Shown here in pieces: positions 59,838 through 62,364 of a DNA stretch of 64,000 nucleotides. The position numbers and the translations under genes were made by a program. Numbering within the stretch: the stretch's first letter is position 1; each line of letters begins with the position of its first letter. The notes under the pieces are model-generated. The model worked only from the letters and a program-made list of their open reading frames with translations, was not told the origin of the DNA and did no database searches. Source of the stretch: Nitrospinales bacterium (GTDB lineage Bacteria; Nitrospinota; Nitrospinia; Nitrospinales; VA-1); NCBI GenBank assembly GCA_965262115.1, contig OZ253496.1, positions 1,835,054-1,899,053 on the forward strand, read 5' to 3'.

Positions 59838-59902
59838 TGATCTTCCCCTGAATTGGTGGACACATCGAAAAGTGTGGATAATACACTTTTGGAGGTGTTT
59901 TT

Positions 59903-60179
59903 ATGGGAACCAAACGCAGGAGTTTCAGTAAAGAATTCAAGTTAGAAGCGGTTCGATTGGTTATTGAAGTAGGCGATAGCATTGCCCGGGTGTCCCGGGA
60001 TCTGGGAATCCGTTCTGCCCTTCTGGGTCGCTGGAAACAGGAGTATGAGGAGGATCAGGGGAATGCGTTTCCCGGCAAAGGACAGCTTAAGCCGGGAGAT
60101 GAGTTGCAGCAGTTGCGGCGAGAAAACGCTCGCCTTCGTATGGAGCGGGACATATTAAAAAAGGCGGCAGTTATCTTTG
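59903..60179 (+). pseudogene. IS3 orfA (HTH), 3' end displaced by the insertion
   Basis: MGTKRRSFSKEFKLEAVRLV...LRRENARLRMERDILKKAAVIF, then foreign sequence. The native end (..AKGSQ stop) resumes at 61430. Confidence 0.85.
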
Positions 60180-60248
60180 TGATGGCCTCTTCATTAATCT
60201 TTATGCCCGGCACGGGTACTTCATGCCCCGAAGCAACTGTGTTAAATG

Positions 60249-61189
60249 TCAAGTGCTGGCAATGAGATTTTCATTCCAGAGTGTTTTTGTTTTGATCATG
60301 GTATTGATGATCGTTAATAACTTTCTCATGCATGCGGTAATGGCAACTTTAAAGGGTTTGCCCTTTTCGATGAGGCGTGTGTAAAAGGTACGAATCACGG
60401 GATTATGCTGCATGGCAGTGACGGCGGCCATGTATAAAGCGGCACGCACATTGGCGCGGCCGCCCCAGATACACCGAACTTTCCGCTGTCCCGATTGAGG
60501 GGAGCGAGACCGATGAGGGCGGCGATTTGCTTCTGATTAAGAACTCCAAGTTCCGGAACCCCGGCCAAGAGGTTGACAGCCAGAACGGGACCGGCACCGG
60601 GAACACTTTGTATAATCTGGTCGTGCTCACGCCAGGCAGAACTGTTTTTGATGGTTCTGGAAAGGTCGCCATCGATTTTTCGCAAGCGTTTTTTAAGAGA
60701 TTCGATATGCTCCTTAATGTCTTTACATATCCATTTTGGAGCTTGTTTTAGACGGGTTTTTTCTTTGGTCAGCATCTCGATCAACTGGCGACGGCGTGTC
60801 ACTAGAGCTGAGAGTTCAAGAGATTCTTCGTCTTTGATTTTCCTGACCTCAGGACGTATGGCCTTGGCAAAATGAGCCAGCACAAGAGAATCAATGACAT
60901 CGGTTTTTGCCAGTTTCCCGGTGGCTTTGGCAAAATCACGAACTTGCCGTGGGTTGACCACGGCTACTGGCAGTCGACCCGCAACCAGGGCCGAAGCCAA
61001 CGGGATCTCTAAGCCGCCTGTGGCTTCCAAAACGATCAATGGAGGATTTAAGGCGGATAAACTCTCGACCAAACCAGCAATCCCTTCTTCATTGTTAGCG
61101 GTTTGCCAGGTTTCTTGAGTCATGCTGTCAGCAACATCCAGATGGAGTTTAGAAATATCGATGCCAATAAAATGGGGTTTCTGATTCAT
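60249..61189 (-). pseudogene. IS110 transposase (DEDD + Tnp20 domains) with one frameshift
   Basis: ORF 60395-61189 has [19 protein letters not shown] and LNRDSGKF. The frame must shift near 60471-60481 to reach [54 protein letters not shown] (ORF 60249-60449). Confidence 0.85.
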
Positions 61190-61420
61190 AATTTGGTCTC
61201 CCAGCCTTGCCGATGTGGGCTCAGTGGCCCAGGCAACTGTTCGGGTTAATCAAAATAGGACACAACGATCTGCGCTTCGGGACGGGCTTAAAAGCCCAAG
61301 GGGTAAACGATCTATTGTGCCCTGAATCAAACCCTGTGAGCCTTGTGGAAAACACAAAACCGGCTTCCCACAGGGCTCACAGGTACAACTACTACAAATT
61401 CCCCTTATGAACAACATACA
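61190..61420 (-). ncRNA. Candidate IS110 bridge RNA (5' non-coding end of the element)
   Basis: A 16-bp 5' hairpin (61383-61368 / 61348-61333) and two stem-loops (61297-61284 and 61231-61216), each flanked by short segments matching the REP target or the IS termini. See findings. Confidence 0.55.
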
Positions 61421-61429
61421 AGGGGTACT

Positions 61430-62306
61430 CGAAGGGTTCCCAATGAGATATCGGTTTATACGGGATCATCGAGAAGCATTTCCGGTAAGCCCGATGTGCC
61501 GGGTTCTGGAAGTGGGACGAAGTGGGTTCTATGCCTGGCTGAGCCGCCCCGAGAGCCTGAGGAGCCGTGAGAAGCAGCGATGGGTTGATGAGATCAAAAC
61601 CGTTTATAAGAAGAGTCGCCAGACTTATGGCAGTCCCAGAATTCATGAGGACTTGAAAGACAAGGGATATGCCATTGGCAGGCATCGTATTGCCTGTCTT
61701 ATGCGCGAGCATGGAATCGTTGCCAAGCACAAAAGAAAGTTCAGGGTGACAACCGATTCCAAACATAATCACCCGGTGGCAAAAAACAAACTGCAACGGC
61801 GGTTTAATGTTGCTGAGCCCGGTCAATGCTGGGTTTCGGATATCACCTATATCCCGACTCAAGAGGGCTGGTTATACCTTGTGGTGACGCTGGATTTATT
61901 CCACCGTAAAGTTATTGGTTGGGCCATGGATCGTTGGATAACCCGTTGGTTGGTAATGAGAGCTTTAAATATGGCAATGAAGAACGGCGGCATGAAACCG
62001 GGATTGATTCACCATTCTGACCGGGGGGTTCAATATGCCTGCAACGATTTTCAAGCCTTGCTCAATGTTCATGGGATAGAGTGCAGTATGAGCCGGAAGG
62101 GCGATTGCTGGGATAACGCCGTGGCGGAGAGTTTTTTCCATACTCTCAAAGTGGAACTCATTCATAACCGGAACTACAAAACCCGTCAGCAAGCAAAGAA
62201 GGATATTTTTGAATATATCGAAGTGTTTTATAATCGGCAACGCCGTCACTAATATCTCGGCTATCTCAGCCCTGCCGAATTCGAGAAACAGGCCTATGCC
62301 TCTTAA
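61430..62306 (+). pseudogene. IS3 orfB (DDE integrase) with a premature stop 17 codons before the native end
   Basis: [23 protein letters not shown]...WVSDITYI...HSDRGVQY...[12 protein letters not shown] at 62250-62252 interrupts ..NRQRRH*YLGYLSPAEFE. Confidence 0.85.
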
Positions 62307-62364
62307 CTAACTGTCCACTAAAACAGGGGAAGTTCAGAGTTTAGGTTTCGGCGGTCGCGTGCGT

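What the first reader, a model, noticed from the sequence alone, without database searches (positions are those of the whole stretch)
59838..62336. Three-level nesting: IS110 inside a REP hairpin inside an IS3 element
Removing 60180-61429 restores IS3 exactly. orfA then reads ..AAVIF|AKGSQ stop, and the -1 frame entered at the A AAA AAG site (60157-60163) reads KKGGSYLC|[13 protein letters not shown].. without interruption. The inserted 1250 bp breaks down as follows: 54 bp of REP-family sequence (TGATGGCCTCTTCATTAAT-CTTTATGCCCGGCACGGGTA-CTTCATGCCCCGAAG), the 1187-bp IS110, and the remaining REP half (AGGGGTACT). Deleting the IS110 and one copy of the AG core rebuilds CTTCATGCCCCGAAGGGGTA, the window consensus of the repeat. 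The order of events was therefore IS3 insertion, then invasion by a 61-bp REP doublet, then IS110 insertion into the hairpin loop. This shows the short repeat is, or was, itself mobile, since it landed inside an IS. It also shows that it serves as the landing pad for IS110. IS3 orfB additionally carries a premature TAA (62250), so the outer element is dead.
Basis: seen in the sequence. Interest (0 to 1): 0.7.

Follow-up and report, generated by a model that had tools for sequence, protein, structure and literature searches.

The report
IS110 in repeat inside IS3
A jumping gene (IS3 family) carries a short genome-wide repeat in its middle, and a second, RNA-guided jumping gene (IS110 family) has landed in that repeat's hairpin loop. 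Each layer is of a known kind, but the repeat is present in every copy of this IS3 in the genome, so it did not arrive at this locus.

Summary
The three-level nesting is real. The outer element (59838-62336) is an IS3-family element. Its 1250-bp insert is a 61-bp repeat doublet split by an 1187-bp IS110-family element. Related IS3 elements from other Nitrospinota (72-80% nt identity) have no insert. The IS110 has a canonical bridge RNA. Its target loop reads TACCCCU and CCCGAAG, matching both sides of the CT core in the repeat loop. In five related subfamilies the guides and the flanks change together. The order of events needs revision. All four full-length copies of this IS3 in the source contig carry a repeat unit at the same site, and three of them also carry the IS110. 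The repeat was therefore probably acquired before this IS3 variant spread, or the site is a hot spot. The repeat is a 39-41-nt unit found in at least 120 marine metagenome contigs. It shows clean presence/absence without target duplication. It lacks the GTAG tag, and no RAYT gene was found, so it is REP-like rather than a proven REP. The case is ordinary in kind and instructive in detail.

The parts
59838..62336 (+). Outer IS3-family element. It is 1249 bp without its insert and is split into 59838-60177 and 61428-62336.
   Evidence: It has terminal inverted repeats of the TG...CA type. It is 80% identical over its full length to a 1248-bp Nitrospina contig, L001. The conceptual OrfAB scores 418 bits on NF033516 'IS3 family transposase', cut-off 160.
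59903..60177 (+). orfA up to the insertion point. It includes the slippery A AAA AAG at 60157-60163. The last 5 codons and the stop resume at 61428-61446.
   Evidence: Translations are. Pfam HTH_Tnp_1 hits the orthologous gene in L014.
61443..62252 (+). orfB (DDE/rve transposase domain), ending at a premature TAA at 62250-62252.
   Evidence: Relatives read CAT TCN TAT at this point. The rve families hit the L014 orthologue. The same TAA is present in L013. L014 shows no difference from the window there.
61469..61476 (+). 3' arm (TCGAGAAG) of a conserved stem. Its 5' arm, CTT|CTCGA (60175-60177 plus 61428-61432), is split by the repeat insertion. It is the likely frameshift-stimulating hairpin.
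   Evidence: RNAalifold on four IS3 relatives predicts 18 pairs, with a compensatory AU-to-GC change at the innermost pair of the 8-bp arm. Its role in frameshifting is inferred.
60178..60233 (+). Left 56 nt of the REP-like doublet: head TGTGATGGCCTCTTCATTAAT, hairpin 1 CTTTATGCCCGGCACGGGTA, and the first 15 nt of hairpin 2, CTTCATGCCCCGAAG.
   Evidence: The unit architecture matches 11 other units in the window and about 190 units in 120 metagenome loci. The same doublet type occurs in L018.
61421..61427 (+). Right 7 nt of the doublet (AGGGGTA). The AG is the duplicated core.
   Evidence: Read directly from the sequence.
60234..61420 (-). IS110-family element of 1187 bp, flanked on both sides by the CT core (AG on the + strand).
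   Evidence: The ends were defined against a second copy at window 1-583 and against relatives L135-L156. Its ORF scores 163 bits and the intact paralogue 226 bits on NF033542 'IS110 family RNA-guided transposase', cut-off 140.
61190..61420 (-). Bridge-RNA region (5' non-coding end).
- 5' stem-loop: 61332-61383.
- Target-binding loop: 61258-61322, with LTG TACCCCU at 61299-61305 and RTG CCCGAAG at 61275-61281.
- Donor-binding loop: 61205-61242, with LDG ACAGUUGC at 61233-61240 and RDG CAAG at 61206-61209.
   Evidence: The fold gives -86.3 kcal/mol, z = -3.4. The guides match the target and donor as in the IS621 model. Guides and flanks covary across five subfamilies.
60249..61189 (-). IS110 recombinase gene broken by a 10-bp deletion near 60476/60477. 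The 264-aa ORF is at 60395-61189. The C-terminal 66 aa are in another frame at 60249-60449.
   Evidence: Intact paralogues on the same contig are 316 aa and read DSGKFRGRRCIWGGR. This copy reads DSGKFGV and then shifts frame.
1..583 (+). Second IS110 copy. It is cut by the window start, degenerate, and about 90% identical. It is also inserted in a repeat loop (flank CTGCGGGGCATGAAG at 584-598).
27378..27599 (+). A 222-bp 5' fragment of the same IS3, 100% identical. It ends before the repeat site, so it is uninformative about the insert.

Best explanation
This is a nested set of three mobile or formerly mobile sequences in a Nitrospina-like genome.

(1) Outer layer. An IS3-family element. (Shown.)

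(2) Middle layer.
- A member of a Nitrospinota-wide family of 39-41-nt REP-like units (head (T/C)GTGATAT, spacer, weak hairpin CTTCRTG-CCCC-GRA-GGGG-TA) lies between ATCTT and CTCGAAGG at the end of orfA. There it splits the 5' arm of the conserved stem downstream of the frameshift site. No target duplication is visible.
- The insertion most likely happened in the ancestor of all copies of this IS3 variant in the genome. The repeat-bearing IS3 then multiplied. (Inferred.)
- The repeat segment has since diversified into 41-, 61- and 69-nt versions.

(3) Inner layer.
- An IS110-family element recombined its circular form into the CT core of the hairpin loop, TACCC-CT-TCGGGG. It was guided by its own bridge RNA, whose target-binding loop carries TACCCCU (pairs with the bottom strand left of the core) and CCCGAAG (pairs with the top strand right of the core). 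(Complementarity is shown; guidance is inferred.)
- The copy here has a 10-bp deletion in the recombinase gene. It must have been moved by one of the intact 316-aa paralogues acting in trans. (Inferred.)

Consequence. By carrying the repeat, the IS3 variant became a target for the IS110. The IS110 occupies three of its four copies and splits orfA from orfB.
For: IS3 identity and insert-free relatives:
-.
- The corrected boundaries rest on the native junction, the conserved stem and the unit ends.

Repeat at the same site in all four full-length copies on the 2.68-Mb contig:
-.
- DNA of a copy with the repeat but no IS110 is at L013 753-2042.
- An other-strain orthologue is L014.
- No 97-aa OrfA above 87% identity was found, so no repeat-free copy of this variant is known.

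Repeat family:
- 11 hits in the window against 0 expected.
- Consistent unit structure.
- Compensatory C-G, T-A and G-C variants at the innermost stem pair.

Unit-wise gain or loss without duplication:
- L019 against L096.
- Window 18225-18304 against the empty paralogous site at 39781/39782.

IS110 mechanism:
- Family model hit.
- Predicted fold with two internal loops.
- Guide matches, in the arrangement described for IS621 (PMC11208160).
- RTG and right flank change together: CCCGAAG with CT-TCGGG, CCCGUAG with CT-ACGGG, CCCGGAG with CT-CCGGG, GGGUUAG with CT-CACCC (6 of 7), AGGACAG with CT-GTCCT.
- LTG and left flank change together: UACCCCU, UCCCCCU, GGAGCCU.
- The circle junction would form TTGACA-N17-TATGTT.
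- At least 5 intact and at least 5 deleted recombinase variants lie on the same contig.
Against: - The repeat inserts of the IS3 copies differ far more than the IS3 bodies. Against L013 there are 3 substitutions plus a 20-nt indel in the repeat, and 5 substitutions in 1249 bp of IS3 body. Single acquisition followed by spread does not predict this without extra assumptions, such as gene conversion with genomic repeats or slippage.
- The 41-nt version blocks both routes to OrfAB. Spread of that version would need a transposase supplied in trans, and no intact source copy was found.
- IS110 occupancy of 3 of 4 IS3-borne repeats, against about 1 of 14 other repeats in the window, is not explained by random independent hits. 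Yet the three occupied copies have different repeat heads.
- DNA of two of the four copies (P0002, P0123) could not be retrieved.
- None of the IS3 copies or relatives examined shows a target-site duplication.
- How the repeat unit moves is unknown.
Confidence: 0.7

Rival explanations
1. All three events happened in place at this locus: IS3 inserted here, a 61-bp doublet then invaded this copy, and IS110 then hit the doublet.
For: The nesting itself is real. The doublet form is so far seen only at this locus and in its other-strain orthologue L014.
Against: Three other IS3 copies on the same contig have a repeat unit at exactly the same position. Two of those also have the IS110 at the same position in the repeat. 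The in-place story would therefore need four independent invasions of the same dinucleotide step.
Confidence: 0.1
2. Hot-spot model. The site ATCTT|CTCGAAGG in this IS3 is a preferred target of the repeat-mobilising machinery. Different repeat variants (single, doublet) entered different IS3 copies independently.
For: - The inserts differ in spacer sequence and in unit number, while the IS3 bodies are 99.6% identical or better.
- The doublet has an independent counterpart with the same architecture in an unrelated locus, L018.
- GGGGTA followed by CTCGAAGG recurs in non-IS3 contexts, in L039 and L057.
- The native site resembles the repeat's own loop and 3' half (CGAAGGG).
- Repeat units are also found inserted into other repeat units.
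Against: - It requires single-nucleotide precision four times.
- No repeat-free copy of the variant exists to show the empty state.
- The flanks of the two other clean insertion sites (L019; window 18225) show no shared target motif with the IS3 site.
Confidence: 0.2
3. Loaded-repeat or composite model. The repeat and the IS110 entered IS3 together as one 1.25-kb unit, a repeat unit already carrying an IS110. Alternatively, the IS3::repeat::IS110 composite was copied as a whole by IS3 ends or by gene conversion between IS3 copies. The IS110-free copy would then arise by precise IS110 excision.
For: - Three of four IS3 copies have the IS110 at the same place and in the same orientation, far above the occupancy of other repeats in the window.
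- The boundaries of the whole 1250-bp insert coincide with repeat-unit ends.
- IS110-family excision is reported to restore the target. This is taken from the bridge-recombinase literature listed and was not tested here.
Against: - The repeat heads upstream of the IS110 differ between the three occupied copies (ASSLIF doublet, SSSLAF, SSSFVF).
- A copy with the repeat but no IS110 exists.
- There is no direct evidence that repeat units can carry cargo.
Confidence: 0.15
4. The REP-like segment is native IS3 sequence and not an insertion.
For: It is present in every full-length copy of this IS3 in the genome.
Against: - Four relatives at 71-80% nt identity align across the site without a gap.
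- Apart from two truncated or interrupted products (P0040, P0018), the other OrfA homologues listed are 93-108 aa.
- The segment splits a conserved, covarying stem.
- It is a full, boundary-to-boundary member of a genome-wide repeat family.
Confidence: 0.03

Closest known systems
IS621 (E. coli), ISPpu9 and ISPpu10 (Pseudomonas putida): IS110-family bridge-RNA elements that insert into REP sequences (PMC11208160, PMC12288879, bioRxiv 10.64898/2026.03.19.712850, PMC1525189)
   Same: - It has a DEDD/RuvC-plus-Tnp recombinase and no terminal inverted repeats.
- A CT core flanks both ends.
- The 5' non-coding RNA has a target-binding and a donor-binding internal loop, and each guide includes the core.
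- The target is the loop of a short, high-copy intergenic hairpin repeat.
- A promoter would be assembled across the circle junction.
   Different: - The host phylum is different (Nitrospinota).
- The target is an unrelated repeat family, TACCC-CT-TCGGGG.
- This copy is a 10-bp-deletion derivative that needs a helper.
- The repeat it hit lies inside another insertion sequence and not in an intergenic spacer.
IS3 of E. coli and the IS3 group of the IS3 family
   Same: - The size is about 1.25 kb.
- The ends read TGATCTT...GTGGACA, which from my memory resemble the E. coli IS3 ends.
- orfA (HTH) and orfB (rve/DDE) overlap in the -1 frame.
- The slippery site is A AAA AAG, followed by a stem.
   Different: - It carries a foreign 41-69-nt repeat inside the frameshift-stimulating stem.
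- orfB has a premature TAA that removes 18 residues.
- No target duplication is visible.
REP / REPIN elements mobilised by RAYT tyrosine transposases (PMC3116915, PMC3337134, PMC3733652)
   Same: - It is a short, high-copy, mostly intergenic unit with a GC-rich hairpin.
- It occurs singly, in tandem and in inverted pairs.
- Units are gained or lost without target duplication.
- It is a favoured landing site for IS110-family elements.
   Different: - No GTAG or CGTC tag sits at the foot of the stem.
- The stem is only 5 bp and is no more stable than shuffled sequence.
- The unit has a conserved non-palindromic head (GTGATAT) about 14 nt upstream of the hairpin.
- The same consensus is shared by many marine metagenome contigs and is not confined to one genome.
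- No RAYT was found in the sequence available.
IS1397 / ISKpn1, IS3-family elements that insert into REP loops (from my own knowledge, not checked here)
   Same: They show an association between an IS3-family element and REP-type repeats.
   Different: The relation is the reverse. Here the repeat is inside the IS3, not the IS3 inside the repeat.

Membership tests
IS3 family | OrfA with an HTH domain and OrfB with a DDE (rve) domain that match the family profile. | tested here: met
   NF033516 scores 418 bits against a cut-off of 160. PF01527 and PF00665/PF13683/PF13333 hit the orthologue in L014.
IS3 family | orfB in the -1 frame, overlapping orfA, with a slippery heptamer. | tested here: met
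   A AAA AAG lies at 60157-60163. After removal of the insert, the -1 frame is open into orfB. A conserved downstream stem is present.
IS3 family | Terminal inverted repeats ending 5'-TG...CA-3'. | tested here: met
   The 25-nt inverted repeats match at 20 of 25 positions.
IS3 family | Short (3-5 bp) target-site duplication. | tested here: inconclusive
   No duplication is visible at the window copy, at L013, or at relatives L002-L004.
IS110 family (bridge-RNA recombinases) | Recombinase with a DEDD RuvC-like domain plus a Tnp domain. | tested here: met
   On NF033542 the intact paralogue scores 226 bits and this copy 163 bits, cut-off 140. PF01548 and PF02371 also hit.
IS110 family (bridge-RNA recombinases) | No terminal inverted repeats, and a conserved core dinucleotide at both junctions. 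| tested here: met
   CT lies at both junctions here and in all 12 relatives aligned.
IS110 family (bridge-RNA recombinases) | A non-coding RNA with two internal loops whose strands pair with target and donor on either side of the core. | tested here: met
   LTG, RTG, LDG and RDG matches are. No Rfam family reached its threshold.
IS110 family (bridge-RNA recombinases) | A functional recombinase encoded in this copy. | tested here: not met
   A 10-bp deletion shifts the frame 7 codons after the DSG serine motif. Membership of the element is unaffected. This copy is non-autonomous.
REP / REPIN-RAYT system | A short, high-copy, extragenic repeat with a stem-loop. | tested here: met
   There are 11 hits in 64 kb against 0 expected. 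The units lie in intergenic positions. The innermost pair covaries. However, the 5-bp stem gives about -3 kcal/mol and is not better than shuffles.
REP / REPIN-RAYT system | A GTAG or CGTC tetranucleotide at one end of the palindrome (PMC3733652). | tested here: not met
   In the consensus (T/C)GTGATAT-N-CTTCRTGCCCCGRAGGGGTA neither tag sits next to the stem.
REP / REPIN-RAYT system | A cognate RAYT (IS200-like Y1 transposase) gene flanked by the repeats. | tested here: inconclusive
   phmmer with IS200 TnpA and E. coli RAYT sequences found nothing in the window plus about 950 kb of repeat-bearing loci. The best hits are DsbA-like proteins. The rest of the genome was not available.
REP / REPIN-RAYT system | Mobility as a unit, without target duplication. 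| tested here: met
   A 39-nt unit is present in L019 and absent in L096. An 80-nt nested block lies at window 18225-18304, with an empty paralogue. The IS3 insert is a third case. The direction, gain or loss, is not determined.

The most novel reading that the evidence does not exclude
The most novel reading has three parts.
- The 39-41-nt unit is an actively mobile module that leaves no target duplication and is shared across marine Nitrospinota. It moves by a mechanism that is not the classical GTAG-REP/RAYT one.
- It repeatedly and site-specifically invades one position in an IS3 element, the frameshift stem. There its length class decides whether OrfAB is made constitutively (61 nt), by frameshifting (69 nt) or not at all (41 nt).
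- By doing so it recruits a clade of bridge-RNA IS110 elements, whose guide RNAs track the repeat's loop variants, to inactivate the IS3. This would be a three-way interaction between mobile elements, not an accident of nesting.
Probability: 0.15. Interest if true: 0.65.

Novelty: new member of a known kind. Interest (0 to 1): 0.4.

Why it matters
- It gives a natural, sequence-level example of bridge-RNA targeting outside the Proteobacteria, with guide-target covariation readable directly from genomes.
- It defines a previously undescribed REP-like repeat family that is widespread in marine nitrite-oxidising Nitrospinota. No paper linking Nitrospina to REP, REPIN or RAYT turned up.
- It shows that a short repeat can become part of another transposon and make that transposon a target for a third element.
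- Paralogous or allelic empty sites for repeat units are rare evidence that such repeats move as discrete units.
- None of this changes the current understanding of IS110, IS3 or REP biology.

Tried and rejected
- Plasmid collection: a BLAST of the IS3 left part found no match.
- Metagenome scan for the predicted uninterrupted junction CAGTTATCTTNNCGAAGGGTTCCCA: no hits. A same-variant, repeat-free IS3 copy was therefore not found.
- DNA for the IS3 copies P0002, P0123 and the window's own OrfA: not on record in the gene index. The IS110 and repeat sequences of those copies could only be read as protein.
- Organism name from cluster members: no names were given. Assignment to Nitrospinota rests on the relatives' record titles.
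- RAYT search with phmmer and a motif regex: nothing convincing.
- Rfam: no family reached its gathering score. The only hit was sub-threshold, sX15, on the opposite strand.
- IS110-mediated delivery of the repeat into IS3 was considered. On the IS110-sense strand the native site GGAACC-CT-TCGAG differs from the cognate target at two of eleven positions. It was rejected because neither junction of the 1250-bp insert has the CT-core arrangement such a recombination would leave.
- A larger hairpin between the C/T-rich head and GAAGGGG was considered. It was rejected because the T-rich-head subfamily cannot form it.
- The fact that two of three sequenced length classes preserve a route to OrfAB was considered as evidence of selection. 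It was rejected because chance alone would give this in about two thirds of cases for each variant.
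Full report
OBSERVATION

- The outer element spans 59838-62336. It has 25-nt terminal inverted repeats beginning TG and ending CA. It carries an orfA with the slippery heptamer A AAA AAG (60157-60163) and an orfB in the -1 frame.
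- Between them lies a 1250-bp block. Taking the block out joins orfA to its stop and opens the -1 frame into orfB.
- orfB ends at TAA (62250-62252), where four relatives read a serine codon.
- The block consists of REP-like sequence, an 1187-bp element encoding an IS110-type recombinase on the minus strand, and more REP-like sequence. AG (CT on the recombinase strand) is present at both inner junctions.
- The 20-mer CTTCATGCCCCGAAGGGGTA occurs 11 times in the window at up to 3 mismatches, against none expected.
- A 222-bp fragment of the same IS3 lies at 27378-27599.

THE IS3 AND THE TRUE INSERT BOUNDARIES

A scan of species-representative genomes with OrfB found full-length relatives in Nitrospina and Nitrospinota assemblies.
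- L001, a 1248-bp contig, aligns end to end with the restored element at 80% identity. L002-L004 align at 71-72%.
- None has anything at the insertion site. They read ATCTTCTCGAAAGG or ATCTTCTCGGAGG.

Shifting it two bases to 60178-61427 has three points in its favour.
- It predicts ATCTTCTCGAAGG and SKGSQ, as in the relatives.
- It completes an 8-bp arm, CTTCTCGA, that pairs with TCGAGAAG (61469-61476). This stem is conserved in the relatives and carries a compensatory AU-to-GC change.
- It makes the insert begin TGTGAT and end GGGGTA. That is exactly where units abut in tandem arrays elsewhere.

The conceptual OrfAB matches NCBIfam 'IS3 family transposase' at 418 bits. The repeat therefore sits inside what is probably the frameshift-stimulating hairpin. 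That role is inferred.

THE REPEAT IS IN EVERY COPY OF THIS IS3

A protein search with the restored OrfA returned 97-98-aa proteins from many Nitrospinota. It also returned a few longer products at 96-97% identity, all on one NCBI contig of 2,684,264 bp. Their sequences and cluster members are as follows.
- P0121 is the window's own 120-aa product.
- P0001 reads ...[25 protein letters not shown]... This is a single repeat unit with no IS110.
- P0002 and P0123 read ...VIF-VMSSSLAFMPRS-NCVKCQ... and ...VMSSSFVFMPRS-NCVKCQ... These are a single repeat unit followed by the IS110 right end.

The source genome therefore has four full-length copies of this IS3. All four carry a repeat unit at the same site, and three also carry the IS110 at the same point in the repeat.

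A metagenome contig encoding P0001 (L013) shows the DNA: ATCTT-TGTGATGTCCTCTTCATTTGTCTTCATGCCCCGAAGGGGTA-CTCGAAGG. That is a 41-nt unit, and the same TAA is present in orfB.

L014 is another strain's version of the window locus. It has a 69-nt doublet plus the IS110.

No repeat-free OrfA above 87% identity was found. A metagenome scan for the predicted empty junction found nothing.

For this IS3 variant the repeat is inherited element sequence. It remains an insertion relative to the wider IS3 lineage.

AN UNRESOLVED POINT ABOUT HISTORY

The IS3 bodies are nearly identical, but the repeat segment is not.
- Window against L013: 5 differences in 1249 bp of IS3 body, and 3 substitutions plus a 20-nt hairpin module in the repeat.
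- Window against L014: 2 substitutions in the IS3 body, plus L014's truncated right end, and 5 substitutions plus 9-nt and 1-nt indels in the repeat head.

The length classes differ in their effect on expression.
- 61 nt puts orfA in frame with orfB, giving one 386-aa ORF once the IS110 is removed.
- 69 nt keeps the -1 route.
- 41 nt destroys both.

With three variants this is not evidence of selection.

Three histories remain possible: single acquisition followed by rapid change of the repeat (gene conversion, slippage), repeated site-specific invasion, or spread of a composite. I favour single acquisition because four hits at one dinucleotide step is a heavy demand. My confidence is only moderate.

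IS110 occupancy is 3 of 4 for IS3-borne repeats and about 1 of 14 for other repeats in the window. This is unexplained, because the three occupied copies have different repeat heads.

THE IS110 AND ITS BRIDGE RNA

The recombinase ORF matches 'IS110 family RNA-guided transposase'.
- Intact paralogues on the same contig are 316 aa (P0124-P0128).
- The window copy, at least four other copies, and the degenerate copy at window 1-583 share a 10-bp deletion. It shifts the frame just after the DSG serine motif.
- This copy is therefore non-autonomous.

The 231-nt 5' non-coding region folds into a long 5' hairpin and two internal-loop modules (-86.3 kcal/mol, z = -3.4). The first loop carries two guides.
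- UUUACCCCUU is on its 5' side. It is identical to the top strand left of the core, TACCC-CT.
- CCCGAAG is on its 3' side. It is the reverse complement of CT-TCGGG.

This is the LTG/RTG arrangement described for IS621, where each guide includes the CT core (PMC11208160). The second loop carries ACAGUUGC (right end plus the first core base) and CAAG (complement of CT-TG).

Relatives confirm that these are guides.

| Subfamily (aa identity) | RTG | Right flank | LTG / left flank |
|---|---|---|---|
| Window copy | CCCGAAG | CT-TCGGG | UACCCCU / TACCC-CT |
| P0148 (72%) | CCCGUAG | CT-ACGGGG (three of eight flanks match exactly) | UACCCCU / TACCC-CT |
| P0150 (72%) | CCCGGAG | CT-CCGGG in one case | UACCCCU / TACCC-CT in L148 |
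| L152 (64%) | GGGUUAG | CT-CACCC (6 of 7) | UCCCCCU / TCCCC-CT |
| L156 (69%) | AGGACAG | CT-GTCCT (7 of 7) | GGAGCCU / ..GC-CT |

- The P0148 and P0150 subfamilies sit in the same repeat family as the window copy.
- In units collected independently of the stem, the repeat loop occurs as GAA, GGA, GCA and GTA. The three RTG variants of the repeat-targeting clade correspond to three of these.
- Joining the right and left ends gives TTGACA-N17-TATGTT. A junction promoter of this kind is described for IS621.

The inner layer is thus a standard bridge-RNA element aimed at the repeat loop.

WHAT THE REPEAT IS

In the window the unit is (T/C)GTGATAT, then 11-14 variable bases, then CTTCRTG-CCCC-GRA-GGGG-TA. 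It is 39-41 nt long and intergenic.
- A metagenome scan with the hairpin consensus stopped at its 120-locus limit, mostly on marine contigs.
- About 190 units in those loci share the architecture. They include head-to-tail arrays and one doublet (L018) built like the window's.
- The stem is short. Single-strand folding gives about -3 kcal/mol, no better than shuffles. However, the innermost pair shows C-G, T-A and G-C versions.

Two clean filled-versus-empty comparisons exist.
- L019 has a 39-nt unit, CGTGGTATTC...GGGTA, that L096 lacks. The flanks are 97-98% identical and there is no duplication. The unit lies inside an inverted unit.
- Window 18225-18304 holds an 80-nt unit-within-unit block inside a TIR-bearing element. 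The paralogue of that element at 39692-39829 is uninterrupted.

Membership of the REP/RAYT class is not established.
- There is no GTAG or CGTC tag.
- No RAYT-like ORF was found in the window or in about 950 kb of repeat-bearing loci, by a weak test.
- I found no literature on such repeats in Nitrospina.

COMPARISON AND VERDICT

- IS110-family elements in REP sequences are well documented, both in older surveys (PMC1525189) and in the bridge-RNA literature.
- IS3 architecture is textbook.
- REP-type repeats are accepted as mobile (PMC3116915).

The less usual points are these: the repeat inside an IS, its presence in every copy of that IS, its hypervariability there, the consequent capture of an RNA-guided IS, and a repeat family shared across many Nitrospinota.

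I rate the finding as a new member of known kinds.

Noticed in passing
window 18135-18360 and 39692-39829: A roughly 190-bp element with terminal inverted repeats (CTTCTACGAAGGAGACCTTTGCRTAA) occurs twice. The copy at 18135 carries an 80-nt insertion (18225-18304). That insertion is one REP-like unit nested in the loop of another. The copy at 39692 is uninterrupted at 39781/39782.
   Followed up: partly
L019 1870-1908 versus L096: Two strains that are 97-98% identical differ by exactly one 39-nt REP-like unit. There is no target duplication, and the unit is inserted into an inverted unit between its hairpin and spacer. The same composite arrangement recurs in L045 and L038.
   Followed up: partly
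window 1-598: A second IS110 copy is cut by the window edge. It is about 90% identical, has extra stops, and carries the same 10-bp deletion. It is also inserted in a repeat loop (CT-GCGGGG). At least half of the 10 or more IS110 copies in the genome carry this deletion.
   Followed up: partly
window 27100-27625: The 222-bp IS3 fragment starts 7 nt after a REP-like unit. It ends abruptly against a sequence resembling the end of the TIR element above. A second such end lies at 27102-27143 in inverted orientation, so this region is another mosaic of repeats.
   Followed up: no
L014 versus window 59471-59837 and 62331-62467: In another strain the same IS3::repeat::IS110 lacks 367 bp on its left and 137 bp (including its own last 6 bp) on its right. 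The DNA beyond it is only 86% identical, whereas the left side is 99.98% identical. This suggests IS-adjacent deletion or recombination.
   Followed up: no
window 61180-61336 (+): There is a sub-threshold Rfam hit to the Xanthomonas sRNA sX15 (33.7 bits against a gathering score of 55, E = 0.003). It lies over the bridge-RNA region but on the opposite strand. sX15 and its antisense partner asX7 are reported to have 10 homologues in the Stenotrophomonas maltophilia K279a chromosome (PMC3300014). They may therefore be the non-coding region of an IS110-type element.
   Followed up: partly
L136 about 2440-2480; L003 about 1700: One IS110 relative has a 14-nt tandem duplication of its right end (TTTAACACAGTTGC twice) at the junction. 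One IS3 relative has a private 22-nt insertion just after the orfB start.
   Followed up: no
window 29680-29784, 45116-45220, 55959-56063, 46246-46309, 55823-55886; 646-685 and 38542-38581: Further unrelated repeat families were reported by the repeat finder: 64-105-nt units beginning CGGAGTACCTCCGCTGG..., and a 40-nt TCCCTCCCTTCATA.GGAGGGACT.AGGGAGGG motif.
   Followed up: no
window 59838-62336 with the IS110 removed: The 61-nt doublet places orfA in frame with orfB. Before the IS110 arrived, this copy encoded a single 386-aa OrfA-linker-OrfB protein with no need for frameshifting.
   Followed up: partly
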